DNA of 64,000 nt from Bdellovibrionia bacterium (GCA_030427965.1 JAUICD010000001.1:18625-82624), one strand, 5' to 3'; shown: positions 26,921 through 38,429, numbered from the stretch's first letter. The notes: generated by a model from the sequence alone, not told the origin. Numbers and translations are program-made.

Positions 26921-27634
26921 TTAATCCTCATGGTTGGTTTTTCGAATAGATTGATGAAGCGCAGCTTTTAAAAGTTCAACTTCTTTTGGAGATGGAACAC
27001 TTCTTTGGATCATTTTTGTTAACTTTGAGGCGGCATTTTTGTTTTTTGATAAATCATAGCCTGTGCTTTCTAACCAAGTTCGGAAAAGCTCTGTCGGAAA
27101 AATCTCTGTTGCAATGTCTTTTCTTGGGTATTCTTTGGGTTTTCCAAATTTTTCTTGAGCTATGTATAGAGTGAGCAAAACAGCTTGAGCGAGGTTGTAG
27201 GTTTCAAAGTCGCCATATGTAGGTAGATAAGCTGTGTAATTCATGTTCAAAAGTTCTTCACTTGTAAGGCCATGATCTTCTGGACCAAAAACCAAATAAA
27301 AAGGAGCATTGGGTCGCTCCAACTCAGATATTCGACTGGTCACTTCAGAAAATGAAAGTGTATCTCTAAACTGCCCGAGTCTTCTTGTGAGTCCAATGTA
27401 AATGCCGTTTTCTTCTTTCTCGCGAAGTTGATCAAGACTGTCATATTCCACTGCATTTTCGAGTGCGCCTTGCGACCCGGCGGCCCCTTGTCGGGCGCGC
27501 AAGTCGAGTTCACATTTTTTGTTGACCAAAAAAAGTTTGTCTCCTCCAAGGTTTCCCATTGCACGAGACGCAGCTCCAATATTTCGAGGGTATTTTGAAC
27601 CTATCAATATGATATTGAACTGCGAGGGTTTCAT
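26921..27634 (-). CDS. SpoU/TrmH-family tRNA 2'-O-methyltransferase, TrmJ-like
   Basis: 'IILIGSKYPRNIGAASRAMGNLG', 'LVFGPEDHGL' and 'NLAQAV' are SPOUT motifs. Confidence 0.75.
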   Translation of the reverse strand: MKPSQFNIILIGSKYPRNIGAASRAMGNLGGDKLFLVNKKCELDLRARQGAAGSQGALENAVEYDSLDQLREKEENGIYIGLTRRLGQFRDTLSFSEVTSRISELERPNAPFYLVFGPEDHGLTSEELLNMNYTAYLPTYGDFETYNLAQAVLLTLYIAQEKFGKPKEYPRKDIATEIFPTELFRTWLESTGYDLSKNKNAASKLTKMIQRSVPSPKEVELLKAALHQSIRKTNHED

Positions 27635-29361
27635 ACGTCTATGTGTGAGATTTTAAGACCATCTTGTATGGATTCACAATACAGAGGTGTTTTTTCAGAA
27701 ATCTGACTGAGATTTTGTTCAACTTTCTTTTGTAATTTCAAATCCAAACTATGTTTTTTCATAACTTCAAGTAACTCGAGTTGAAGAAGCCAATCGCTTG
27801 AATACTTTTTCTTAACCTCTTGAAGAATATCAATGAGATCATCTTCAGGATTGTCAAAGTCTTCAAAATTTTCGCGAATTAAGCGAACTTTGGCATAGAG
27901 GCTTTCGTGCTCATCAAATGTAGGTGAAAATATTTTTGGTGGAACGAGTTGACTAGAAAAATCTTCAATTTCTCCGTAAGAATTTCGATCCGCAGGCCCT
28001 CCAAAAACAGAAACAATATCTGAACCAACTGCCATGTCATATTCTCCCCAAGTGGGGTCAAAAAGAGTTTTTTGCTCATAGGTGACTTTACAGTTCGTAA
28101 ATGTGATCAACAGAGTTTTGTTGTTTGAAGTTAAAATAGTTTTGATAGTTCCTGATACCAAAACACCAGAGTCAAATTGCAGATCGATTTGCCTTTCTTC
28201 CTTGATTCCAAGAGAGATTAACTCTGCAGGGTTGAGTGTTGAAAGATCTTTGGATTTTACGGTCCCAACAGGTGCCCCAAAGCCCTCTGGATGTCGAGAT
28301 TTGTCGTGTCCTTCAAGTTGTGAGTTATCAAAAGAAAGTTGAGTTGGACCCGTCATTTGAATATAGGCGGGTTTTCCCTCTTTTTCTATAAAGTCACTTA
28401 GTACCCCACTCACTTGTAAGCCTGAGTTGTATTCAATGGTATTTACGGTTTTTGCTCTTCTAGCAACACTAAGGCCATAGATTCCTCCTCTTTTAAATGA
28501 CATTCTTTCAGACATTTCTTCAAGAACACGAGTGAGGTCTGAAAACTTCTCGACAACAAAAAGTTGTGGCTGAGGTTCAGTAATATCATATGAATAATCA
28601 ATACAATTGATGTCAAATGGGATTTTTTTTGTATTTTTTGTCAATGAACTTCGGCTTTCTTGAACAGATGAAAGGAGCCCGGCTCCATAGATTTGAGGTT
28701 TGTCGACTGTTCCAATCAATCCATATTCAGCAGTCCACCAGTTCATTCTAGCAAGTAATGCCGCTTCAGAGGGGTCTTTGGCATTTTTTGTTGCTTTTTC
28801 AAGTTGTTCTTCACATTCCTTTATCATTTCGGGAGTGGAATCAGGGTGTTCTTTTATGTCAGAGAGATCGCGTATGGCTTTATAAAGTTTGATGTCTTCT
28901 ATGTTTAAAATGGACTTACTGGCAAGGCTTGCATAGCTTTTGAGATAGGCTGAAAATTGAGGGTCAATAAGAATTGGTGCATGCCCAGCAGCTTCATGAA
29001 CAATATCTGGAGCAGGTGTGTAGCCGAGGTGTTCAAGAGTGCGCATGTCAGATGCGATGGGTAAGTAACCTAGAGATTGGAGTTCCATAAATGCAGCAGG
29101 TGGAATAAAACCACTAACAGGTATTGCTTGCCACCCGTATTTGTTTAATTTTTTACTCATTTCACTGATATGTGGAATCTTATCAGTCGTGATTCCAGTT
29201 TTCTCAAGTCCATCGATATAGCAGGGGTGAGCGTTTTGAGTTAGAAAGTGTTTCAACTGTCGCATGATAAAGCGCCAAACGGCTTGGTCGATTGCAGAGT
29301 AGCGGTCGTAGTTCTGATCAACAATGTATTTTTTTAAGTGCTGCGGTAGTTCTTTGCTCAT
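27631..29361 (-). CDS. Aromatic amino-acid hydroxylase (phenylalanine-4-hydroxylase-like) with ~250-aa C-terminal extension
   Basis: Iron ligands in 'PDIVHEAAGHAPIL' (H-x4-H) and 'WWTAEYGL' (Glu). ATG 29361 ('MSKELPQ') avoids overlap with hldD; the ORF track starts at 29472. Confidence 0.75.
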   Translation of the reverse strand: MSKELPQHLKKYIVDQNYDRYSAIDQAVWRFIMRQLKHFLTQNAHPCYIDGLEKTGITTDKIPHISEMSKKLNKYGWQAIPVSGFIPPAAFMELQSLGYLPIASDMRTLEHLGYTPAPDIVHEAAGHAPILIDPQFSAYLKSYASLASKSILNIEDIKLYKAIRDLSDIKEHPDSTPEMIKECEEQLEKATKNAKDPSEAALLARMNWWTAEYGLIGTVDKPQIYGAGLLSSVQESRSSLTKNTKKIPFDINCIDYSYDITEPQPQLFVVEKFSDLTRVLEEMSERMSFKRGGIYGLSVARRAKTVNTIEYNSGLQVSGVLSDFIEKEGKPAYIQMTGPTQLSFDNSQLEGHDKSRHPEGFGAPVGTVKSKDLSTLNPAELISLGIKEERQIDLQFDSGVLVSGTIKTILTSNNKTLLITFTNCKVTYEQKTLFDPTWGEYDMAVGSDIVSVFGGPADRNSYGEIEDFSSQLVPPKIFSPTFDEHESLYAKVRLIRENFEDFDNPEDDLIDILQEVKKKYSSDWLLQLELLEVMKKHSLDLKLQKKVEQNLSQISEKTPLYCESIQDGLKISHIDV

Positions 29362-29375
29362 CAAATTAGGCCTAC

Positions 29376-30341
29376 TTACAGGTATGGGTTTTGTTTGAGA
29401 AGTATTCTTATGTAGTCTTTCATTGCTTCTTCTAAATTCCATTTGGGCTCCGAAAGGTTTAAGGATTTCCAAGTCTTCATGTCAGCTTCAGTGAAATACT
29501 GATACTGTGAGCGGATATTTTCAGGAATATCTATCCATTCAATTTCAATGGGTTTATCAAGAGCTTCAAATGCAGCACCAACGAGGTCTTTCCATGTTCG
29601 AGCCTTCCCAAATCCCATATTAAAAATTCCACTTATCTCAGGTCGCTCTAAGAGTTCGGCCATCCATCTTGTGATGTCTTTTACGTATACGAAATCACGA
29701 AGCTGTTCACCGTCTTTGTAATCTGCATTGTGTGATTTAAAGAGTCGAACCTTTCCTTTTGCTTGAATTTGATGAAAGGCTTTGTATGCCATACTGGTCA
29801 TGTCTTCTTTGTGATATTCATTTGGGCCAAAAACGTTGAAAAACTTTAAACCGACACACTGAAGAGGGAGGTTTTTTTGATCTTTTACAAACCTATCAAA
29901 TAATACTTTTGAATAGCCATATGGGTTGAGTGGCATCAATTCAAAGGGGTCGGTTGTGTCACTAAAACCTTTTGATCCATCTCCATAAGTGGCGCCACTG
30001 CTTGCGTAAATAAAGCGAGCCTTATTTTGAGTCGCCCATTCAAATAGGGATTTGGAATACTGGTAATTGTTTTCAAGTAGGTAGTCGACGTTGGTTTCTG
30101 TTGTTGAGGAGCATGCTCCCATATGAAAGATAGTTGTGATATTACTAGACTGAGAGGTTTGGAGAAGGCCTAAAAAGTCATCCGGGTCGACGATGTTCTT
30201 GAAACGGCGATGGGCAATGTTTTTCCATTTGAGACCATTTTCTAACCAATCCACAAGGAGAAGGTCTGAATGTCCACGTTGATTGAGCTCCCAAGCCAAT
30301 GCACTTCCAATAAATCCAGCCGCGCCAGTGATTGCGATCAT
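29376..30341 (-). CDS. hldD: ADP-L-glycero-D-manno-heptose 6-epimerase
   Basis: 'MIAITGAAGFIGSALAWELNQRG', 'YGYSK', and overall collinearity with RfaD/HldD. Confidence 0.8.
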   Translation of the reverse strand: MIAITGAAGFIGSALAWELNQRGHSDLLLVDWLENGLKWKNIAHRRFKNIVDPDDFLGLLQTSQSSNITTIFHMGACSSTTETNVDYLLENNYQYSKSLFEWATQNKARFIYASSGATYGDGSKGFSDTTDPFELMPLNPYGYSKVLFDRFVKDQKNLPLQCVGLKFFNVFGPNEYHKEDMTSMAYKAFHQIQAKGKVRLFKSHNADYKDGEQLRDFVYVKDITRWMAELLERPEISGIFNMGFGKARTWKDLVGAAFEALDKPIEIEWIDIPENIRSQYQYFTEADMKTWKSLNLSEPKWNLEEAMKDYIRILLKQNPYL

Positions 30342-30415: not shown

Positions 30416-32287
30416 CTAAATATCGTCAGCACACTCTTCTGCGACTTGGAACAGGTTTTTGAGCACCTTCCTCGTGCTGGAACGGTGGTTTTTTAGAACT
30501 TTCTCAGGTGAGGCGACACCCTCTTCGGGTACGAGAACTTGTGACTGAATCATAGACTCAATGACTTTTTGAAACTCGCTCACATTGAGTCGTCTTTTTT
30601 TGGCTTGAATAAGCATTTCTGCAATGACTGTAATGGCATTTCCTGTCAATCGGTCTCGACGATTGATAACGTTCGCGCGTGCAGCGATATCTCGAATCAT
30701 TCGAATAAAACCTCGCCTTCGTCTTGAAAGGTTCACAAGATCTAGGTAACTCGACTGTAAATCTATCAAGCGGTCGGCTTGTTGAGGACTCATTTTTTGA
30801 TCTCGTGGAGATGCTGTTGAGGCAAGCATGACTTCAAATAAAACTGCAGATGAAATTGCTGAGCTTTCTCCTTTATCTCTAAAATGGTTTGCCAAATACC
30901 TCAGAGTGTCTTTCATAGAGAAAATTGCAGGTCGATTGATACCATCTTCTATTTTCTTTGCTCCACCTTGAGTTTTGGTTCGTTCAAAATAGGAATAGTG
31001 TGAGTCAAACTCTAAAACAGCAGCTCGATGACTCTTGATCAATAGATCACGATCATTTTTACGAAAGCCAACTCGGTACAAGAGGTGTTCTAAACGATAG
31101 CTTTCAAAGAGTTCATTGAACCGATCTGTGATTGGGTGCTTGGCGTAATCATTGAGTGGGGGTTTTTCCTTTAACGTTAAGGTATCTGCGATTTGTTGAA
31201 AGACCTGAACGATAAGTCGTGCTTTTTGTTTCTGTTCATTTAAGTTTGTCGAATACCGATCTGTGTCTTCATATCTATACTGATCGTGGCGTGCTCCAAA
31301 TTGTCTGATGCTACCATAATCAATGATCCCAGCATTTGTGAGTATATTGTCACCATCCCAATCCATCCATGCAAAAATATAATCGACATCCAGTCGTGCG
31401 GCCATCTTGGCAAATGAATCACAAATGGCTTCAACCATATGTTGATACTTTTTAGGGGATCTAGAACTAAAGGACCATTCCTTGTTTTGAATTTGTCTCT
31501 CAATAAGGTAATCTGTTGCCACCTTTAGATTTTCAGTATCATTGAGTTTTAAGTATCGAAATATATGGGCTGGGCGAATGAGGTTTGGTGCGGCTCGGAC
31601 ACCAATGCCGAGACCCTTTCCAAGATCAATTATGGCAAGCATTCTTTCTGTTGCAATATTTTGTCGATGAAAGATTTCAGAAAAAATAGCTGTTGCGACA
31701 AGTTCGTCAAGTTCAGCCATACCACATCCATAGCCAAATTCCTCATCTCCGGACTTTAGTGGTTTTCCAGCTTCCACAGCACCTGGGGCAAGTTTTGTAA
31801 CTCCAGTGCCTCGGCTACTTACATCCCAAGTTGTTCCAGCATGGTGAATGGCTCCGTTCCAAATACTTCGACCATCTCCAGAGGTTTTTCCCTGTTTGTT
31901 TGAGTGTTGCAGTTGAAGGTATCTTGTTGCCATGTACTTGTTTTTCTTAATTGTCTCTTTGGGAAATTGTATTTTATTTGATTGATCGTATTCATTGATG
32001 ATTTGTAGACAGAATGTGGAAAGGATTTTGTTTTCAAGTTCTTTATTCAATGTGTGATTATGTCCTTTGGGAATAAGGCCCATTTCTTTTGCTAGCCAAA
32101 AATTGAAGTAGAGAACTTTTCCACCCTTAAGTTTACGTGCGGGATATAGGACAGCGCCATCTTTGACTTGCTCCGACCATGGGTGTGAACCATCAATTTT
32201 CTGAAACTTTGCGTAACGCCCTGATCCACTGGATTTGGTTTTGCTAAGGCGTGGTTTTTTATTGGTTTTGGGTGTTGTTTTCTTCAC
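30416..32287 (-). CDS. Divergent SelO/YdiU (UPF0061)-like protein-kinase-fold nucleotidyltransferase, extended
   Basis: 'VLYFNFWLAKEMGLIP', 'SGDGRSIWNG', 'WDVSSRGTGVT', 'AIFSEIFHRQNIATERMLAII', and 'DWDGDNILTNAGIIDYGSIRQFG' are collinear with E. coli YdiU blocks (GDGR, LKGAG, HGVMNTDNM, DYGPFGF). GTG start. It has a Lys-rich N-terminus and a ~200-aa C-terminal extension. Confidence 0.6.
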   Translation of the reverse strand: MKKTTPKTNKKPRLSKTKSSGSGRYAKFQKIDGSHPWSEQVKDGAVLYPARKLKGGKVLYFNFWLAKEMGLIPKGHNHTLNKELENKILSTFCLQIINEYDQSNKIQFPKETIKKNKYMATRYLQLQHSNKQGKTSGDGRSIWNGAIHHAGTTWDVSSRGTGVTKLAPGAVEAGKPLKSGDEEFGYGCGMAELDELVATAIFSEIFHRQNIATERMLAIIDLGKGLGIGVRAAPNLIRPAHIFRYLKLNDTENLKVATDYLIERQIQNKEWSFSSRSPKKYQHMVEAICDSFAKMAARLDVDYIFAWMDWDGDNILTNAGIIDYGSIRQFGARHDQYRYEDTDRYSTNLNEQKQKARLIVQVFQQIADTLTLKEKPPLNDYAKHPITDRFNELFESYRLEHLLYRVGFRKNDRDLLIKSHRAAVLEFDSHYSYFERTKTQGGAKKIEDGINRPAIFSMKDTLRYLANHFRDKGESSAISSAVLFEVMLASTASPRDQKMSPQQADRLIDLQSSYLDLVNLSRRRRGFIRMIRDIAARANVINRRDRLTGNAITVIAEMLIQAKKRRLNVSEFQKVIESMIQSQVLVPEEGVASPEKVLKNHRSSTRKVLKNLFQVAEECADDI

Positions 32288-32329
32288 ACCCCATTATCGG
32301 ATTGAGGTTGTCTTGGCTAAAGTGGAGTC

Positions 32330-33472
32330 TTATAAAATTGAGACAAAACCTAGTCCACCGTCGGGTGTTCGAAGGTTGGTAACCTGACCTTTGTAGAGCC
32401 TGGAAACTATAAAATAGGGATTGTTTCTATAAGTGTAGATACGGAGATCAAATTTAAATTCGTCGTGAATTCCGGGAGCGACAAACTCTTGTGCCAAAAA
32501 ATTTTGATCAATGAGTGAATTAAATTTTTTGTGACTTATAGATGAGCCCCTATAAACAGCTTTGCTTCCAAAAAGGTTTTTGGGTTTAAAAAAATATTGT
32601 TTTTTGCTATTCCAAATAACTTTGGAGTTGCTTTCATTGAGTTCGATTGTTTTTGGAATAACTTGATTGAAGCAATCAATAAACTTTGGTTCTAGTTTGA
32701 TAGATTCCAAAAAACCTGGAACTGTAATGTCAATAAGTCGTTGTTTGTTTGCAAGTAAATTGTATTCGTGTGGATTTGGGCTAAAGAGAGAAGCTTTTTT
32801 AAGATATGCTTCTTTTAAATGGCTGTTCTTTGGGTCTTCAAATAAAAAATCACAACATCGGTTGTAAACAAAATCGACAGGTTGTCCATCAAATGTGAGA
32901 GCTTTTCCATCAAATTGAAAATCTCTTGGATCGCCAATGAATGTTTCCCATCCTAGTTTTTGGAAAGCTTTTTTGAAAAAAAGAAAATCAAAGTATGCTG
33001 CTTGTTTTTTAGGTTCATCATCTAGAATACCAATATTTTGAATGGAGGGTTTGTTTCCAAAGAACTGAAGTTCTTGGAAAATGTCCTTTTTGAGCTGTTC
33101 CACAAAATTTTCTTTTTCATAAAGAGTTGGTATATTTTTAATTTGATACAGCCAATCTACAACATGGGAAAAAGCGGCATTTGTATTTATCTCAATGAGT
33201 TTCACTCCGTCTTTATTCACGTGAAAATCGTAACTCATCATAATGGCGTAGTTTTTGGGATCAAATTCAGAGATAGGGTGAGATTTTTCTACAAAGCTTA
33301 TATAAGTCTTATTTGCACGAAGCTTTTCAAACGCTTCAATGGTTCTAAGCATGATTTGATAATCGCTATTCTCAATTTGCACAACTTCATCTGAAATTAA
33401 GTTTTCTGGAATACGGACAGATTCACCTAAAGATTGTTGGGCGTGTTGCTCAAACTGTTGTTGTAGTTTCAT
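32330..33472 (-). CDS. ATP-grasp superfamily ligase, glutathionylspermidine-synthase / circularly-permuted ATP-grasp-like
   Basis: 'MSYDFHVNKDGVKLIEINTNAAFS' can be compared with GRFDxxxDGxxKLLExNaDTP. 'VDFVYNRCCDFLFEDP' can be compared with vDviYrRxxddflDP. The start overlaps the prx stop (ATGA). Confidence 0.5.
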   Translation of the reverse strand: MKLQQQFEQHAQQSLGESVRIPENLISDEVVQIENSDYQIMLRTIEAFEKLRANKTYISFVEKSHPISEFDPKNYAIMMSYDFHVNKDGVKLIEINTNAAFSHVVDWLYQIKNIPTLYEKENFVEQLKKDIFQELQFFGNKPSIQNIGILDDEPKKQAAYFDFLFFKKAFQKLGWETFIGDPRDFQFDGKALTFDGQPVDFVYNRCCDFLFEDPKNSHLKEAYLKKASLFSPNPHEYNLLANKQRLIDITVPGFLESIKLEPKFIDCFNQVIPKTIELNESNSKVIWNSKKQYFFKPKNLFGSKAVYRGSSISHKKFNSLIDQNFLAQEFVAPGIHDEFKFDLRIYTYRNNPYFIVSRLYKGQVTNLRTPDGGLGFVSIL

Positions 33473-33996
33473 ATACGAGGCTTTACGAAGTCATCTCCGG
33501 GTTTCCAGCCTGCAGAGCAGAGTTCACCACTTTGAAGGCCTGTTAAAACACGTAAAATTTCATTTACATCACGGCCAATATTTAAATTGTGAATACTTTC
33601 GTATTGAACTCGTCCTTCAGGATCAATGATGAATGTGCCTCGTGTGGCAATGCCTTCATTTTCAATGAGCACGTCATAATCTCTTGAAAGTTTTTTGGTT
33701 AAGTCGCCAATGAGAGGAAATTGAAGTTCACCAAGATCATCTTGTATCCACTTTCGATGAGAATGCACGGAGTCAACACTTACTCCTAAGACTTGTGCCC
33801 CCAGCTCTTCGAAAGAATTAAGTTTCTCATGAAACTGAAGAATTTCGGTTGGGCAAACAAAAGTAAAATCAAGTGGATAAAAAAACAAGACCACCCATTT
33901 TCCTTTAAAGCTGGAGAGGGAAATATCTTTGAATTCCCCACCCTCAACAACGGCTGGTGCTGTGAACTGAGGGGCTGGTAGGCCAATTTTAGACAT
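33469..33996 (-). CDS. Typical 2-Cys peroxiredoxin (AhpC/Tsa family)
   Basis: Peroxidatic Cys in 'FFYPLDFTFVCPTEI'. Resolving Cys in 'GELCSAGWKPGD'. Confidence 0.9.
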   Translation of the reverse strand: MSKIGLPAPQFTAPAVVEGGEFKDISLSSFKGKWVVLFFYPLDFTFVCPTEILQFHEKLNSFEELGAQVLGVSVDSVHSHRKWIQDDLGELQFPLIGDLTKKLSRDYDVLIENEGIATRGTFIIDPEGRVQYESIHNLNIGRDVNEILRVLTGLQSGELCSAGWKPGDDFVKPRI

Positions 33997-34103
33997 AGGT
34001 GACTCCTTACAAATTTATGAATATATGGTATGTGATCTTTTGTAGCAGAGTGATCAGTGCGAGGTAAGAATCACTCGTAAGTAAAAGTGAGTCAAGGAGA
34101 CCA

Positions 34104-34871
34104 ATGAAAATCATATCTTGGAATGTAAATGGAATACGTGCAGCTTATAAAAAGGGGTTGTTGGAATTTCTAGATAGAGAAAGCCCAGATATTTTTTGCG
34201 TGCAAGAAACTAAGGCACGCCCTGAGCAAGTTCCTCAAGATCTTCTCGAGCCAGATTCGATGTTCAGCTATTGGTCAAGTGCAGAGAAAAAAGGGTATTC
34301 TGGTACAGCAACATTTCTTATTCAAGACGCCATTGAAGTGGATCATGGGGTGGGAATTTCGGAGTTTGATAGTGAGGGGCGATTTGTTGTTACTCATCAT
34401 GAGGATTTTCATCTTTTTAATATTTACTTTCCAAATGGCGCTCGAAGCCAAGAACGTCATGATTATAAAATGAAATTTTTAAAAAAGATGAATCAAATTT
34501 TCAAAAGTTATATCGATAAGGGAGAAGAGGTTATCGTTCTTGGCGATTACAATGTCGCACACAATGAAATTGATGTTTATGACCCTGTTCGACATGCAGA
34601 CACCAGTGGTTTTCGTCCAGAGGAGCGAAAGTGGTTTCAAGATTTTTTGGATTTGGGATTTGTGGATACGTTTCGTCATTTTTTTCCAGATGAAACAGAG
34701 AGATACACTTGGTGGAATCAAAGAGAAAGGGCTCGCTTGGCAAATCGAGGATGGCGCATTGACATGATATCAATCACAGAAGGGTTGGTAGAGCGACTTA
34801 TGGGGGCGGAGATCATGGATCATGTTGAAGGTTCAGATCACTGTCCGATTGCTATTGAACTAGAGGACTGA
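34104..34871 (+). CDS. xth: Exodeoxyribonuclease III
   Basis: 'MKIISWNVNGIRA', 'FCVQETK' and 'GSDHCPI'. Confidence 0.9.
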   Translation: MKIISWNVNGIRAAYKKGLLEFLDRESPDIFCVQETKARPEQVPQDLLEPDSMFSYWSSAEKKGYSGTATFLIQDAIEVDHGVGISEFDSEGRFVVTHHEDFHLFNIYFPNGARSQERHDYKMKFLKKMNQIFKSYIDKGEEVIVLGDYNVAHNEIDVYDPVRHADTSGFRPEERKWFQDFLDLGFVDTFRHFFPDETERYTWWNQRERARLANRGWRIDMISITEGLVERLMGAEIMDHVEGSDHCPIAIELED

Positions 34872-34873
34872 AA

Positions 34874-35344
34874 TTGGGATTACTTTTTATTTTCATTATT
34901 GTGCCAGTCATTGAAATTTTCTTACTTATGAAAGTGGGTGGCTCTATTGGTATAATGAATACTATTGGGATCATTATTGGTACAGGAATTCTGGGTGCTA
35001 CTTTATCTCGACATCAAGGGCGTCAAGTGATTGGTGAGCTAACCCGCATGATTGGTGAGGGGCGTGAACCAACACAACTTTTGATTGAGGGGGTGTTGGT
35101 TTTTGTTGGTGGTGTTCTTCTTTTGACTCCGGGTTTTTTTACAGATGGAGTGGGGTTTTTGATGATTTTGCCCGGAACTCGTAGGCTTTTTGTAAGTACT
35201 GCAAAAAGTTACTTTGCTAGTGGGGTGCGTTCAGGTCGCTTCAAGGTGTATACGCAAACGACCCAATCTAGAAACAATCGTGATTATGAAGCCGAAAATA
35301 AGAATCCAGGGGTTATTGATGTGGATGGAGAGCGATTAGAATAG
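34874..35344 (+). CDS. fxsA: FxsA family membrane protein
   Basis: 'LLLTPGFFTDGVGFLMILPGTRR' is the FxsA signature. TTG start. Confidence 0.8.
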   Translation: MGLLFIFIIVPVIEIFLLMKVGGSIGIMNTIGIIIGTGILGATLSRHQGRQVIGELTRMIGEGREPTQLLIEGVLVFVGGVLLLTPGFFTDGVGFLMILPGTRRLFVSTAKSYFASGVRSGRFKVYTQTTQSRNNRDYEAENKNPGVIDVDGERLE

Positions 35345-36295
35345 CATCCCTATGTAAGTTGCATAGGCCACAATCAGTAGAAAGCCAAACATTCGACTTA
35401 CCCAACCTTTTGTAAGAAAGAGAACTCCCCAAAAAAGAAAAGTGGCAAGTAAGAGCCAAATCGTATCAAAGCTCATAACATTATTTGATATGGCAATGGG
35501 CGTGATGGCAGCTGCAGACCCCATGACAGCAAGCGTGTTCATAATATTGGAGCCAATGACGTTACCGATTGAAATGTCATCTCTTCCTTTGTAGGCAGCA
35601 AGTGCAGATGTGGCAAGTTCTGGAAGACCTGTTCCAATAGAGACTATAGTCAATCCTATGATTCTTTCGCTCATTCCCATGAGACGTCCAAAATCAATGG
35701 CCCCTATTAGAGCAAGGTGTGCGCCCCCAGCAAGGGCTATGATCCCTCCAATGATGTAAATAACTTCAAGAGAAAGAGAGGCAAGTGGTGCAAATTCCTC
35801 AGGCTCTTCACTGCCCTTGTGGATCTTAACAATAAGAACAATGAACAAAATAAATAGAGCAATTAAACCAATGCCTTCCATTTGATCAAAAAGAAGATCT
35901 TTTCCTAAAAAATAAAAGACTCCACTTGATAGAATTAAAAATGGCCATTCAAAGCGCATTGTTTCTCGACTTGCTCGAGTTGGCATCAAAAGACAGGAGG
36001 CTCCAATGACTGCAAGAAGATTAAATAAGTTAGACCCCACAACATTTCCAGCTGAGACGTCAGGAGCTCCTTGAAGGGCTGCGAGTATGCTCGTAACAAG
36101 TTCAGGTGCAGACGTGCCGAATGCCACAATTGTGACAGCCACAAGAGCTGCGGGAATATTCAGTCGTCCTGCTAGGCTTACGGATCCTCTGAGAAGAACC
36201 TCGGCTGCCAAAATCAGAATTCCAAATCCCGCGAGAATGTAAAAAACAGGAAATACCAAATGCATTTCCTCAAGATAGGGGATGTTGGCGTGCAA
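35336..36295 (-). CDS. Ca2+/Na+ antiporter (CaCA family, YrbG-like)
   Basis: Two alpha-repeats, 'GTSAPELVTS' and 'GTGLPELATS', and about 10 TM segments. Confidence 0.85.
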   Translation of the reverse strand: MHANIPYLEEMHLVFPVFYILAGFGILILAAEVLLRGSVSLAGRLNIPAALVAVTIVAFGTSAPELVTSILAALQGAPDVSAGNVVGSNLFNLLAVIGASCLLMPTRASRETMRFEWPFLILSSGVFYFLGKDLLFDQMEGIGLIALFILFIVLIVKIHKGSEEPEEFAPLASLSLEVIYIIGGIIALAGGAHLALIGAIDFGRLMGMSERIIGLTIVSIGTGLPELATSALAAYKGRDDISIGNVIGSNIMNTLAVMGSAAAITPIAISNNVMSFDTIWLLLATFLFWGVLFLTKGWVSRMFGFLLIVAYATYIGMLF

Positions 36296-36648
36296 GATTA
36301 TCTATGTTTCACAGCGTTAACATGCGACGCACATCACATCTTGAGATTTCAAAGTTCAAAAAAACCATGCTGAACGAGGTGTGTTGAAATTTGATCGATT
36401 TGTTTTAATTTTAATGTGTAAAATCAACATGTTTTGAGTAGTTCGGTGTTTTGAAGATTAAGTTTCTAAGGCTTTCTTGTGGTAGCTGACATAAGCTCAG
36501 CTTATTTGTCTAAAAATAGATAATTATTACTGATTTTAAGTATTTATGGGACTTGGAAACATTGAAGGTTTTTGGTTGCCATTTCATTTTCAAGCGTGTG
36601 TAAATATTTCAAACCTCGATGGGGCTCGAGGGATTTGTGGAGGGGAAA

Positions 36649-37020
36649 ATGCAGATACCTGAAAGTTTAATACAAGAATGTAGATCGAAACTTTTGACCC
36701 AGAAAGTCGACATCCTTAATAGAGTTCAAGATTCACGAAAGAATTTTGTTTCCTCTGAAGAAAAAAGAGGTGGAGACGAGGCCGACCAAACAATGGCTAT
36801 TCTTCAAGAGAAGGAAGCGTTGACGCTTCATGAGCGATTGCGCAGCCAATTGGTTGAAATTGAAAGCGCTTTAGCAAGAATTGAAAGCGGCACTTATGGT
36901 ACTTGTGAAGAAACAGAGGAAACAATTGAATCTGAAAGACTTCGCGCGATCCCTTGGACAAGATTGAGTATTGAGGGTGCAGAAATTCGTGAAGCAATGA
37001 GCAAGCGTTACGCCAGATAA
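36649..37020 (+). CDS. DksA/TraR-family protein with degenerate (Cys-depleted) zinc finger
   Basis: GGAGG lies 5 nt upstream of ATG 36649. The coiled-coil tip 'GDEADQT' has the DxxDxx pattern. In the C-terminal 'GTYGTCEETEETIESERLRAIPWTRLSIEG', only 1 of the 4 canonical Cys residues remains. Confidence 0.6.
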   Translation: MQIPESLIQECRSKLLTQKVDILNRVQDSRKNFVSSEEKRGGDEADQTMAILQEKEALTLHERLRSQLVEIESALARIESGTYGTCEETEETIESERLRAIPWTRLSIEGAEIREAMSKRYAR

Positions 37021-37026
37021 ATATCT

Positions 37027-37464
37027 TTAGAGCCCAAGTTCTTTATCACAGAGAGCTTGGGTAGTGAGATCCATCTCAATCTTGTGGGCTGGTACATGTG
37101 GGCCTCTTCCAACGCCGGGGCAAAAGGTTTTAACGTCTTTTTTCCATGACTTGGCGTTCATGTTCTCAGGCCAAAAGGGCCAAGTGCGACATTGTGTTGG
37201 GCGTGCAGAATATACCGAACATTTATTTTCTTTTAAAAACATGCATTCATCTTGTTCGGCTCTTTCCTTTAAATGGTGGATACCGTCGGATTGGTCACAG
37301 TACTTTTTTAGGAAATCGATTTCATCCATATCCAAGTGCTTGGCCAAGGCTTTCTTGTCACCTTTAGACAAATAGACAAACCCATATTCACCGCGACTTA
37401 AGCAACAGTTTCCAGATCCTTGACACTGAAAACGAAGTCCCTTTTGCCACCACTTTTGGCTCAT
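37027..37464 (-). CDS. YkgJ-family (UPF0153) cysteine-cluster protein
   Basis: 'FQCQGSGNCC' N-terminal Cys cluster plus 'CMFL..NKCSVY..RPTQCRTWPFWP'. The start ATG at 37464 overlaps the upstream stop (ATGA). Confidence 0.6.
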   Translation of the reverse strand: MSQKWWQKGLRFQCQGSGNCCLSRGEYGFVYLSKGDKKALAKHLDMDEIDFLKKYCDQSDGIHHLKERAEQDECMFLKENKCSVYSARPTQCRTWPFWPENMNAKSWKKDVKTFCPGVGRGPHVPAHKIEMDLTTQALCDKELGL

Positions 37465-38429
37465 TTGTGGTCTCCTTCTTTTATTGAAAGCCACCCCTTT
37501 GATACGGAAGACCACCCACAGAGCTTGTACAACACTCTCATGCCCACATTTCCATTCCATTCACGGTCATTCTCTGCTGGGGAAACTTCTACCAAATCAA
37601 ATCCCATAATTTCTCGTCCACTTTTCACAGTCTCTTTGATTAAAGTGTTCATTTGATCAAAGCTCAGTCCACCGGGAACTGGAGTTCCCGTTCCTGGGCA
37701 GAGTGCGGGGTCTAGTCCATCAATGTCAAAACTGATATAGATTTTTTGAGGAAGAGTTTTGATGATCTTTTGGCAGATAGTTTTCCAATTTTGTCCAGAG
37801 TGCTCTAAGTCTTTCAACTTTGAATTTGTAAAATAAAAAATCCGCGAATCTTCGTTTGCTAAATTCATCTCTTCTTCGCAAAAATCTCGAACTGCCACGG
37901 AAGTAATAGATTTGGGAGGTGTTTTGAGTTGAAGGGTATTGTACATGATTGATGCGTGGGAGTGTGTGTGCCCTAGGTAAGCTTTGCGAAGATCAAAGTG
38001 AGCATCGATATGAAGTATACCAAGCTCTCCGCCTGTGTTTTCTGAAAGATGTTGAATTAATGAAAAGGGAACAGAGTGGTCTCCGCCAATCACTCCGAGT
38101 ATGCGCGTACCATTGTCGAGAGAGCGAATGAGTTTAAGAGAGAGTTGATTGATTTTTTCGCTAAAGGAATTGATTTCTGACTTTGAGAGTCGTGCTTCGG
38201 TATTAAATATTTCAAACTCTGGATCAATGGGGGCAAGGTGTATCCCTAGAGACGTGGCATCGCCAAACTCTCCATCAAAAACGTCGATTTGTTCACTTGC
38301 TCGTTGAATCGCAATTGGACCTTTGTTTGTGCCTGAGTGATAGGACGTTGTCGCGTCCCATGGAATTGGAAGTAGTGCAATTTGAGCTTCACTTAAAGGG
38401 GTGGACTTTCCAAATATCTCAAGAGCCAT
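37461..38429 (-). CDS. Ureohydrolase (arginase/agmatinase/formiminoglutamase family), paralog 1
   Basis: Mn ligand motifs 'GGDHSV', 'HIDAHFDLR' and 'SFDIDGLDPALCPGTGTPVPGG'. Confidence 0.8.
   Translation of the reverse strand: MALEIFGKSTPLSEAQIALLPIPWDATTSYHSGTNKGPIAIQRASEQIDVFDGEFGDATSLGIHLAPIDPEFEIFNTEARLSKSEINSFSEKINQLSLKLIRSLDNGTRILGVIGGDHSVPFSLIQHLSENTGGELGILHIDAHFDLRKAYLGHTHSHASIMYNTLQLKTPPKSITSVAVRDFCEEEMNLANEDSRIFYFTNSKLKDLEHSGQNWKTICQKIIKTLPQKIYISFDIDGLDPALCPGTGTPVPGGLSFDQMNTLIKETVKSGREIMGFDLVEVSPAENDREWNGNVGMRVLYKLCGWSSVSKGWLSIKEGDHK

What the first reader, a model, noticed from the sequence alone, without database searches (positions are those of the whole stretch)
30416..33996. 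Peroxiredoxin / GspS-like ATP-grasp / divergent SelO-like operon: candidate undescribed thiol-redox protein-modification module
Seen in sequence:
- Three co-directional genes.
- A typical 2-Cys peroxiredoxin comes first.
- Its stop overlaps (ATGA) the start of a 380-aa protein. That protein carries the pre-ATP-grasp/ATP-grasp signature of glutathionylspermidine-synthase-like and circularly permuted ATP-grasp ligases ('SYDFHVNKDGVKLIEINTNAAFS', 'VDFVYNRCCDFLFEDP').
- 42 nt further on lies a 623-aa protein collinear with SelO/YdiU. It retains the Asp/Asn catalytic pair and the DYG (DFG-equivalent) in 'DWDGDNILTNAGIIDYGS'.
- This protein also has an atypical Lys-rich N-terminus and a ~200-aa C-terminal extension.

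Established knowledge:
- SelO-family pseudokinases transfer AMP (or UMP) to proteins and have been tied to oxidative-stress tolerance and S-glutathionylation.
- GspS-type ATP-grasp enzymes ligate thiol peptides to amines.
- 2-Cys Prx consumes thiol reducing power.

Inference: the three act together. One possibility is synthesis of a thiol conjugate that feeds Prx. Another is ATP-grasp and nucleotidyl modification of Prx or its reductant. I know of no described system with this gene triad.
Basis: partly seen in the sequence, partly recalled or inferred. Interest (0 to 1): 0.7.

Follow-up and report, generated by a model that had tools for sequence, protein, structure and literature searches.

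The report
Peroxiredoxin, ATP-grasp ligase, SelO-like neighbours

Summary
On the minus strand lie a 175-aa typical 2-Cys peroxiredoxin (33996..33469), a 380-aa protein starting 4 nt before its stop (33472..32330), and, 42 nt on, a 623-aa protein (32287..30416).

The 380-aa protein matches no curated HMM. Its AlphaFold model (pLDDT 94.6) has the circularly permuted ATP-grasp fold of eukaryotic glutathione synthetase, GspS, YjfC and YgiC, and the catalytic motifs are invariant.

The 623-aa protein is a very divergent SelO/YdiU (13-16% identity). It keeps the catalytic D-N...D triad and the Arg pair. The beta3 Lys is an invariant Arg.

The "module" inference is not borne out. The genes sit in a long syntenic backbone of Bdellovibrionota: FxsA-ExoIII | [Prx][ATP-grasp][SelO-like] heptose epimerase, aromatic amino acid hydroxylase, RNA methylase.
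- Prx is present in 33 of 66 ATP-grasp loci.
- SelO-like is present in 38 of 52, usually with unrelated or opposite-strand genes between.
- All three occur within 8 kb in 22 of 47.
- Prx+SelO-like without the ATP-grasp, Prx+ATP-grasp without SelO-like, and each ligase or SelO-like alone all occur.
- The one apparent Prx-ATP-grasp fusion is a TGA-as-Trp gene-calling artefact.

Only the tight Prx to ATP-grasp junction is consistently kept. Substrates remain unknown.

The parts
33469..33996 (-). Typical 2-Cys peroxiredoxin (175 aa). The peroxidatic Cys lies in PLDFTFVCPTE and the resolving Cys in GELCSAGW. The C-terminal tail is short and variable.
   Evidence: Pfam AhpC-TSA 5.4e-42. It scores below the AhpC equivalog cut-off (161 vs 272 bits). 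Both Cys are invariant in 44 orthologues, and the C-terminus is not conserved.
32330..33472 (-). Uncharacterised circularly permuted ATP-grasp amide ligase (380 aa). Its start overlaps the Prx stop by 4 nt.
   Evidence: No Pfam, NCBIfam or PDB sequence hit. AF2 model pLDDT 94.6. Foldseek top hits are eukaryotic-type glutathione synthetases, YjfC/YgiC, GspS, trypanothione synthetase and the E-64 ligase Cp1B, at E 1e-15 to 1e-10. Invariant D82, E94-x-N96, K296, Q328, K340-x-D342-x-R344 align to TTL/GspS motifs in permuted order.
30416..32287 (-). Divergent SelO/YdiU-family protein (623 aa), predicted nucleotide-monophosphate transferase.
   Evidence: Pfam SelO 26.1 bits (cut-off 22.8) and NCBIfam YdiU 4e-11. 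AF2 pLDDT 86.2. Foldseek finds only YdiU/SelO structures as significant, E 5e-10 to 1e-8. hhalign to E. coli SelO gives 94.7% probability: D313/N314/D323 = D246/N247/D256, R231/R238 = R170/R177, and invariant R159 replaces K107.
33997..34103 (.). 107-nt divergent intergenic region between the exonuclease III gene and Prx. It is the likely promoter region, and an AAGGAG ribosome-binding site precedes Prx.
   Evidence: Sequence read. No consensus sigma-70 match in the scan. Equivalent regions in other loci are 58-245 nt long.
34104..34871 (+). Exonuclease III-like gene. It is the divergent backbone neighbour, present next to the slot in 59/66 loci.
   Evidence: Pfam Exo_endo_phos 6.3e-21; synteny.
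29376..30341 (-). ADP-glyceromanno-heptose 6-epimerase, 74 nt downstream of SelO-like on the same strand. It is a backbone gene unrelated to redox.
   Evidence: TIGR02197 3e-121, above its cut-off. It is directly adjacent to SelO-like in 15/43 loci.
26921..29472 (-). Long-form aromatic amino acid hydroxylase (27631..29472) and an RNA methyltransferase-like gene (26921..27634), continuing the same co-directional run.
   Evidence: NF010657 1.4e-216. The 237-aa product was not itself scanned against any HMM library; it is identified only by position, the orthologous slot holding PF00588 SpoU_methylase in L167-L169 and PF04452 Methyltrans_RNA in L164. The same gene order is seen in L008, L018, L037, L040, L164 and L167-L169.

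Best explanation
The three genes are separately functioning enzymes. They share a variable slot in a long, conserved Bdellovibrionota chromosomal backbone: Arginase, CxxCxxCC, DksA-like, Na/Ca exchanger, FxsA, ExoIII | [Prx][ATP-grasp][SelO-like] heptose epimerase, aromatic amino acid hydroxylase, RNA methylase. In this genome the slot is in its compact state, so they are probably co-transcribed with the downstream housekeeping genes.

Mechanisms, each inferred from family membership:
- Prx reduces peroxides through its FVCPTE peroxidatic Cys, and the CSAGW resolving Cys resolves the sulfenate.
- The ATP-grasp protein binds Mg-ATP through E94/N96/K296. It would activate a carboxylate as an acyl-phosphate and ligate it to an amine, most likely a small peptide or metabolite, as in glutathione synthetase, GspS and YjfC.
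- The SelO-like protein binds a nucleotide in the flipped SelO orientation (R231/R238, with R159 replacing the beta3 Lys). It would transfer AMP or UMP to protein side chains using D313/N314/D323.

They are not an obligate three-part module. At most, Prx and the ATP-grasp ligase are co-expressed partners.
For: Family and fold assignments.

The synteny extends far beyond the triad and includes unrelated genes. The window's own ORFs at 34874-38429 were not scanned against any HMM library; they are equated with the Pfam-annotated genes of L164, L167 and L171 by order, strand and size only, and the rest of the backbone is seen.

Presence is variable: Prx 33/66, SelO-like 38/52, triad 22/47, tight triad in 5 loci.

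All partial combinations occur in the same slot:
- ATP-grasp + SelO-like without Prx: many loci.
- Prx + ATP-grasp without SelO-like: L014, L025, L032, L057, L165, L166, L171.
- Prx + SelO-like without ATP-grasp: L164, L167-L169.

Intervening genes include a histidine kinase, a response regulator, a solute-binding protein, a hydrolase and a recurrent opposite-strand 210-aa ORF.

Control: SelO-like to heptose epimerase adjacency (15/43) is at least as frequent as ATP-grasp to SelO-like adjacency (20/74).

The ATP-grasp occurs alone next to FliL/sigma factor, ferredoxin-reductase-like, M23 peptidase or RadC genes. SelO-like relatives at 41-46% identity lack all block genes in 19/20 loci. The catalytic residues of the ATP-grasp are invariant whether or not Prx is adjacent.
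Against: Where Prx is present, its stop lies 0-10 nt from, or overlaps, the ATP-grasp start in nearly all of 47 loci. This argues for selected co-expression of that pair.

The compact Prx-ATPgrasp-SelO-like order is kept in a deep-branching lineage (the window and its 66%-identical relative L172) as well as in Bdellovibrio, at only 40-50% protein identity.

All three can plausibly be tied to oxidative stress. SelO neighbourhoods are known to be enriched in peroxidases and other redox genes (PMC3281104), and YdiU UMPylates SodA (PMC13355359).

Independent loss does not exclude a facultative interaction.
Confidence: 0.55

Rival explanations
1. Prx and the ATP-grasp ligase form a two-gene functional pair. 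The ligase would make a low-molecular-weight thiol or thiol-amine conjugate (glutathione-, Gsp- or trypanothione-like) that supplies reducing equivalents to the Prx, or protects it by S-thiolation. SelO-like would be unrelated.
For: The stop/start junction of 0-10 nt or an overlap is kept in nearly all 47 loci that have both genes. The fold is closest to glutathione synthetase, GspS and trypanothione synthetase. One Prx-ATP-grasp genome carries a PF08886 glutamate-cysteine ligase 3.3 kb away. The trypanothione synthetase / tryparedoxin peroxidase system is a precedent (established knowledge).
Against: Half of the ATP-grasp loci lack Prx within 8 kb, yet they keep all catalytic residues. Prx occurs without the ligase in L164 and L167-L169. 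The pair is never seen outside this one syntenic slot. No GshA lies in the window or in the other loci. The E-x-N-T-N-A-A motif lacks the two Ser that bind gamma-Glu-Cys in human GS (from memory, not tested here). Sequence motifs in the C-terminal half resemble TTL/YheCD, not GS.
Confidence: 0.22
2. This is the full three-part module proposed by the first reader. ATP-grasp ligation and SelO-type nucleotidylation would both act on the Prx or its reductant as one regulated thiol-redox system.
For: Co-directional compact arrangement in the window and in L172, L017, L018, L029, L034 and L036. All three are catalytically intact. SelO enzymes are linked to redox control (PMC3281104, PMC13355359).
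Against: The triad is present in only 22/47 loci with both flanks available. Each member is dispensable in the same slot. Unrelated and opposite-strand genes commonly separate ATP-grasp and SelO-like. Adjacency to the LPS heptose epimerase is equally conserved. The apparent fusion is an artefact.
Confidence: 0.08
3. SelO-like and Prx are the real pair. The SelO-like enzyme would AMPylate or UMPylate the Prx (or its reductant) to tune peroxide defence, and the ATP-grasp would be a passenger.
For: In marine lineages Prx is followed directly (about 120 nt) by the SelO-like gene with no ATP-grasp (L167-L169; L164). There are precedents: YdiU UMPylates SodA (PMC13355359), and E. coli selO lies near btuE.
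Against: Most SelO-like genes have no Prx nearby. Prx was found in only 9/35 SelO-like-anchored loci, and in 1/20 in the distant band. Many Bdellovibrio loci have SelO-like but no Prx. That adjacency is most simply explained by deletion of the ATP-grasp from the ancestral order.
Confidence: 0.12
4. The ATP-grasp is a protein-tail ligase (RimK/TTL-like) that adds amino acids to the C-terminus of the Prx.
For: 33/50 family members give weak Pfam TTL hits and 20/50 give YheC/D hits. Translational coupling with Prx.
Against: The Prx C-terminus is not conserved and is not acidic; it ends in K, L, G, I, V or N. The overall topology is that of small-molecule ligases (GS/GspS/Cp1B). The ligase persists without Prx.
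Confidence: 0.03

Closest known systems
Eukaryotic-type glutathione synthetase (human 2HGS/8FBZ, soybean hGS 3KAL, yeast 1M0W)
   Same: Same circularly permuted ATP-grasp topology over the whole length (TMq up to 0.72, Foldseek E 1e-15). The N-terminal E-x-N Mg-binding strand precedes the K-P/Gly-rich loop.
   Different: Only 12-14% identity and about 90 residues shorter. No sequence-level match to GS models. The substrate-binding residues could not be verified. The C-terminal-half motifs look like TTL/YheCD.
GspS family: E. coli Gss synthetase domain, YjfC/YgiC peptide-spermidine ligases, trypanothione synthetase, Mfla_0391 (3N6X)
   Same: Same fold and size as YjfC/YgiC (TM about 0.6). The D-F...K-L-(I/L)-E-x-N motif aligns. 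UniRef labels one homologue 'GspS pre-ATP-grasp'.
   Different: hhalign probability to YjfC is only 1% outside that motif. Pfam GSP_synth is hit weakly by 2/50 members. There is no CHAP amidase domain.
SelO/YdiU protein adenylyl/uridylyl-transferases (E. coli YdiU 6K20/6LNA, P. syringae SelO 6EAC)
   Same: Same pseudokinase fold (TMt 0.63-0.69). The GDGR motif, the Arg pair, the catalytic D-N and the DYG are conserved.
   Different: 13-16% identity. The family profile finds no SelO chain in the PDB by sequence. Only 9/49 members reach Pfam SelO at E<=0.01. The beta3 Lys is an invariant Arg. There is an invariant Cys188 in a GYGCG loop insertion. The protein is about 145 residues longer.
AhpC/Prx1-type typical 2-Cys peroxiredoxins
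   Same: AhpC-TSA domain, the PxxxTxxC peroxidatic motif and a resolving Cys.
   Different: Scores below the AhpC and PrxU equivalog cut-offs. The tail is short and lacks a YF motif. No AhpF was found nearby.
Trypanothione synthetase / tryparedoxin / tryparedoxin-peroxidase system of kinetoplastids (system-level analogue)
   Same: A GspS-fold ligase together with a 2-Cys Prx.
   Different: No evidence here for a thiol product, a tryparedoxin or a dedicated reductase. The pairing is facultative.

Membership tests
Typical 2-Cys peroxiredoxin (AhpC/Prx1) | AhpC-TSA thioredoxin-fold domain | tested here: met
   Pfam PF00578 5.4e-42, 143 bits vs cut-off 26.
Typical 2-Cys peroxiredoxin (AhpC/Prx1) | Peroxidatic Cys in PxxxTxxC and a resolving Cys near the C-terminus | tested here: met
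   PLDFTFVCPTE and GELCSAGW; both Cys are invariant in 44 orthologues.
Typical 2-Cys peroxiredoxin (AhpC/Prx1) | AhpC equivalog score (AhpF-dependent AhpC proper) | tested here: not met
   TIGR03137 161 bits vs cut-off 272. No AhpF-like gene in the flanks examined.
Circularly permuted ATP-grasp ligases (eukaryotic GS / GspS type) | ATP-grasp fold with GS/GspS topology | tested here: met
   AF2 pLDDT 94.6. The top 50 Foldseek hits are all GS, GspS, YjfC/YgiC, TryS, 3N6X or Cp1B, probability 1.00.
Circularly permuted ATP-grasp ligases (eukaryotic GS / GspS type) | Mg/ATP-binding motifs (D...E-x-N; K-P + Gly loop; Q-E-Y; K-x-D-L-R) in permuted order | tested here: met
   These residues are invariant in 50 sequences. 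They align to the C-terminal TTL motif at the query N-terminus and to TTLL7 residues 113-177 at the query C-terminus. The GspS motif aligns to YjfC.
Circularly permuted ATP-grasp ligases (eukaryotic GS / GspS type) | Match to a curated family HMM (GSP_synth, CP_ATPgrasp_1/2, GSH_synth_ATP) | tested here: not met
   No hit for the window protein at E<=0.1. Among 50 homologues, GSP_synth is hit by 2 and CP_ATPgrasp_2 by 1, both weakly.
Circularly permuted ATP-grasp ligases (eukaryotic GS / GspS type) | Glutathione/gamma-Glu-Cys and glycine or polyamine as substrates | not testable with these tools
   Needs enzymology or a liganded structure.
SelO/YdiU | Match to family HMM | tested here: inconclusive
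   Pfam SelO 26.1 bits vs cut-off 22.8 (met marginally). NCBIfam YdiU 42.7 bits vs cut-off 431 (not met). Only 9/49 family members hit SelO at E<=0.01.
SelO/YdiU | SelO pseudokinase fold | tested here: met
   Only YdiU/SelO chains are significant, E 5e-10 to 1e-8, TMt 0.63-0.69.
SelO/YdiU | Catalytic Asp-Asn, metal-binding DFG-like Asp, and the Arg pair that holds the flipped nucleotide's gamma-phosphate | tested here: met
   D313/N314/D323 and R231/R238 are invariant and align to E. coli D246/N247/D256 and R170/R177. The residue roles are from memory of the SelO literature.
SelO/YdiU | Beta3 (VAIK-equivalent) Lys | tested here: not met
   It aligns to R159, which is Arg in 49/49 sequences.
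SelO/YdiU | AMP/UMP transfer to protein | not testable with these tools
   Needs an in vitro assay.
   Triad in 22/47 loci. All partial combinations occur. Unrelated genes intervene. Control adjacency to the heptose epimerase is equally frequent.
   The only fusion, P0029, reads a TGA stop as Trp on a 2x-coverage contig.

The most novel reading that the evidence does not exclude
Bdellovibrionota carry an undescribed Prx-coupled small-molecule ligase. On this reading, the permuted ATP-grasp makes a lineage-specific thiol, peptide or amine conjugate that recycles or protects the 2-Cys Prx, and the neighbouring Arg-for-Lys SelO-like enzyme nucleotidylates one of these components under oxidative stress. 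The system would be optional, and lineages would trim it differently.
Probability: 0.1. Interest if true: 0.7.

Novelty: new variant of a known kind. Interest (0 to 1): 0.3.

Why it matters
As a system, it matters little. The evidence favours neighbours in a conserved backbone over a new redox module.

The parts are worth recording.
- The ATP-grasp family is sizeable: 807 clusters at 50% identity with E<=1e-30. It is invisible to Pfam and NCBIfam, has the glutathione-synthetase/GspS topology and no known substrate, and is translationally coupled to a peroxiredoxin in about half of its genomes.
- The SelO-like family has thousands of members, and most are annotated 'hypothetical'. It replaces the canonical ATP-binding Lys with Arg and carries an invariant Cys-containing loop.

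Both are cheap targets for enzymology, in a group of predatory bacteria whose oxidative-stress biology is poorly known.

Tried and rejected
- **Sequence searches against solved structures.** The ATP-grasp and SelO-like proteins, alone and as profiles, gave nothing significant. Only fold comparison resolved them.
- **Prx-ATP-grasp fusion P0029 as Rosetta-stone evidence.** Rejected. The contig has an in-frame TGA translated as Trp, and coverage is 2x.
- **A conserved partner of the ATP-grasp in non-block contexts** (L001-L004, L006, L041, L075). The neighbours are FliL, a sigma factor, an FAD/NAD reductase, an M23 peptidase and RadC. No pattern emerged.
- **The ATP-grasp as the missing glutathione synthetase.** A PF08886 GshA lies 3.3 kb from the pair in one locus only (L171). 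None is in the window or in any other locus, and GshA is unrelated to the ATP-grasp by hhalign. Left open, not supported.
- **C-terminal tailing of Prx.** Rejected, because the tail is not conserved.
- **A PerR/OxyR-type operator in the ExoIII-Prx intergenic region.** No conserved palindrome was found. A TGGCAACA word recurs in several loci and was not pursued.
- **Literature.** No paper links SelO with an ATP-grasp or describes these Bdellovibrio families.

Full report
**1. Observation**

The ORF scan shows three co-directional genes on the minus strand:
- a 175-aa ORF at 33996..33469;
- a 380-aa ORF at 33472..32330, whose ATG overlaps the preceding stop by 4 nt;
- a 623-aa ORF at 32287..30416 with a GTG start, 42 nt after the previous stop (sequence read).

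The run does not stop there. It continues 74 nt later with an ADP-glyceromanno-heptose 6-epimerase (TIGR02197, 3e-121). A long-form aromatic amino acid hydroxylase follows (NF010657, 1e-216), then an RNA methyltransferase-like gene that I identified only by its position in the conserved gene order, not by an HMM scan. No terminator-like site falls between the three genes or in the gap after the SelO-like gene; the only minus-strand match lies just inside the epimerase ORF. Upstream and divergent is an exonuclease III gene.

**2. What each gene is**

*Prx.* It matches Pfam AhpC-TSA at 5e-42. The PLDFTFVCPTE peroxidatic motif and the GELCSAGW resolving Cys are invariant in 44 orthologues. It scores below the AhpC equivalog cut-off. 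It is therefore a typical 2-Cys Prx, but not AhpC proper.

*The 380-aa protein.* No Pfam, NCBIfam or PDB sequence hit was found.
- An alignment of 50 homologues (A1) gave an AlphaFold model with pLDDT 94.6.
- The Foldseek matches are, without exception, eukaryotic-type glutathione synthetases, E. coli YjfC/YgiC, GspS, trypanothione synthetase, Mfla_0391 and the E-64 ligase Cp1B. E-values run from 1e-15 to 1e-10, TMq reaches 0.72, and identity is 11-15% (Cp1B identified in PMC12568646).
- A profile search of PDB sequences gave only weak hits to TTL-family chains, and in permuted order. The query's N-terminal DFHV..LKLIEINTNA aligns to the C-terminal Mg-binding strand of TTL-like proteins. The query's C-terminal KPK..GSK / QEY / KxDLRxY aligns to TTLL7 residues 113-177.
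- The same N-terminal motif aligns to the GspS motif of YjfC.
- Scanned one by one, 33/50 members weakly hit Pfam TTL, 20/50 hit YheC/D, and 2/50 hit GSP_synth.

It is therefore a circularly permuted ATP-grasp amide ligase from a family that no curated model captures. The family is sizeable, with 807 representative clusters at E<=1e-30.

*The 623-aa protein.*
- Pfam SelO is passed marginally (26.1 vs 22.8 bits). NCBIfam YdiU gives 4e-11 but lies far below its cut-off.
- The family profile finds no SelO chain by sequence.
- The model (pLDDT 86.2) matches only YdiU/SelO structures significantly, at E 5e-10 to 1e-8 and TMt 0.63-0.69. Ordinary kinases follow at E>0.02.
- hhalign against E. coli SelO (taken from NC_000913) gives 94.7% probability over 317 columns. 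GDGR is conserved. R231/R238 align with R170/R177, and D313-N314...D323 align with D246-N247...D256.
- All of these residues are invariant in 49 sequences. The beta3 Lys (K107) aligns with R159, which is Arg in 49/49. Cys188, in an inserted GYGCG loop, is also invariant.

I read this as an active but atypical SelO-family nucleotide-monophosphate transferase. The '200-aa C-terminal extension' is overstated. E. coli SelO has about 137 residues beyond the aligned core, against about 209 here.

**3. Are the three co-conserved?**

*ATP-grasp-anchored loci.* From one genome per species I obtained 80 loci; 449 stretches matched in all, nearly all labelled Bdellovibrionota. I located homologues of the window's proteins in them by tblastn.
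- ExoIII lies divergently upstream in 59/66 loci.
- Prx is present in 33/66.
- SelO-like lies within 8 kb downstream in 38/52.
- All three are present in 22/47 loci with both flanks available.
- The tight arrangement of the window is seen in only 5 loci.
- Between ATP-grasp and SelO-like, 13 of 52 loci have no ORF. About 25 have a ~210-aa ORF with no Pfam match on the opposite strand. The rest have histidine kinase/response regulator, solute-binding, hydrolase or other genes.
- In nine loci, including the four closest relatives of the window's ligase (L001-L004), none of the block genes is nearby, and the neighbours show no pattern.

*SelO-like-anchored loci.* I took 80 from metagenomes. Relatives above about 46.5% identity sit in the block: 14/15 have the ATP-grasp. 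Those at 41-46% identity do not: 1/20. Many of the latter are instead followed by a ~220-aa S51-peptidase-like gene.

*Prx-anchored look-ups.* These completed the picture.
- L164 and L167-L169 have ExoIII | Prx, then SelO-like, heptose epimerase and hydroxylase, with no ATP-grasp.
- L165, L166 and L171 have ExoIII | Prx-ATP-grasp with no SelO-like.

*Backbone and control.* The backbone extends more than 10 kb on both sides. It reads Arginase, CxxCxxCC, DksA-like, Na/Ca exchanger, FxsA, ExoIII ... epimerase, hydroxylase, methylase in the Pfam-annotated loci. The window's upstream ORFs follow the same order, strand and sizes, but I did not scan them against an HMM library. As a control, direct adjacency of SelO-like to the unrelated heptose epimerase (15/43) is at least as frequent as ATP-grasp to SelO-like (20/74).

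*The fusion.* The single 526-aa 'Prx-ATP-grasp fusion' (P0029) is an artefact. The 2x-coverage contig has a TGA after ...HLKPK that the gene caller read as Trp.

**4. What survives**

Where Prx is present, its stop is 0-10 nt from, or overlaps, the ligase start in nearly all of 47 loci. The compact order is also kept in the window's closest relative (66% SelO-like identity), which has the same 42-nt spacer. This supports co-expression of Prx and the ligase, and it is the only linkage I consider plausible. Against an obligate partnership:
- The ligase keeps every catalytic residue in genomes that lack the adjacent Prx.
- Prx persists without the ligase.
- The Prx C-terminus is not conserved, which argues against tail ligation.

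**5. Mechanism and comparison**

Best-supported reading (confidence 0.55): three independently acting enzymes in a variable slot of a conserved backbone, co-transcribed here because the slot is compact. The mechanisms are inferred from family membership.
- The Prx carries out the thiol peroxidase cycle.
- The ligase forms an acyl-phosphate and then an amide bond on a small carboxylate/amine pair, as in GS, GspS, YjfC and Cp1B.
- The SelO-like enzyme transfers AMP or UMP from a flipped nucleotide.

Rival readings:
- A Prx/ligase thiol-supply pair, analogous to trypanothione synthetase with tryparedoxin peroxidase (0.22).
- A Prx/SelO-like regulatory pair (0.12). Precedents are SodA UMPylation by YdiU (PMC13355359) and the enrichment of SelO neighbourhoods in peroxidases (PMC3281104; E. 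coli selO lies near btuE).
- The full triad (0.08).
- Prx tail ligation (0.03).

**6. Novelty and verdict**

The functional triad is not supported by co-conservation. The parts are divergent, uncharacterised variants of known enzyme kinds, so I rate the finding a new variant of a known kind, with modest interest (0.3). A facultative Prx-centred system cannot be excluded; I give it about 0.1.

Noticed in passing
L163:108-1688 (protein P0029): A database protein that looks like a Prx-ATP-grasp fusion results from translating an in-frame TGA as Trp on a 1.7-kb, 2x-coverage contig. In table 11 the two genes are separate, with one stop codon between them. In several other loci the ligase ORF also opens in the same frame immediately after the Prx stop.
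   Followed up: yes
L110:6303-6965 and 16 other loci among L113-L158: SelO-like relatives at 41-46% identity, outside the Bdellovibrio-type block, are directly followed on the same strand by a ~220-aa gene. By eye (MKLVLYSGGD...GLSAGA) it resembles S51 peptidase E/cyanophycinase. The pair recurs in loci whose other flanks differ. No homologue is in the window.
   Followed up: partly
L070:1239-2957 (minus strand): Bdellovibrio sp. HCB288 encodes a second, 572-aa SelO-like paralogue about 6 kb upstream of the block. It has a hydrophobic, signal-peptide-like N-terminus, and Gly-Asn where the catalytic Asp-Asn should be.
   Followed up: no
e.g. L009:8959-9591, L005:9213-9848 (minus strand): A recurrent ~210-aa ORF with no Pfam match lies on the opposite strand between the ATP-grasp and SelO-like genes in about 25 Bdellovibrio-type loci. 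It is absent from the window.
   Followed up: partly
L171:11044-12264: A PF08886 (GshA, rare-type glutamate-cysteine ligase) gene lies 3.3 kb downstream of a Prx-ATP-grasp pair in one metagenomic contig. It was not found in the window or in any other fetched locus.
   Followed up: yes
window 30416-32287, residues R159 and C188: Across 49 family members the SelO beta3 Lys position is always Arg. A Cys in an inserted, low-confidence loop (GYGCG, residues 185-189) is invariant; it sits where canonical SelO has its second GDGR motif.
   Followed up: partly
ExoIII-Prx / ExoIII-ATP-grasp intergenic regions, e.g. L014, L025, L032, L073: The word TGGCAACA (often as TATGGCAACAA) recurs in the divergent intergenic region of several loci, with or without Prx. 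It is not seen in the window's 107-nt region.
   Followed up: no
window 29376-29472: The listed TTG start of the aromatic amino acid hydroxylase ORF overlaps the end of the heptose epimerase gene by 97 nt. The NCBIfam match starts at residue 39, so the true start is probably downstream.
   Followed up: no
L046, L075, L077, L041, L052, L035: A few ATP-grasp loci come from MAGs labelled Lysobacteraceae, Arenimonas, Desulfuromonadales, Streptomyces or Bacillota. L052 and L035 carry the full Bdellovibrio-type block, so they are probably mis-binned contigs. The Lysobacteraceae/Arenimonas loci lack every block gene; I did not compute their base composition, and they could be real transfers.
   Followed up: no
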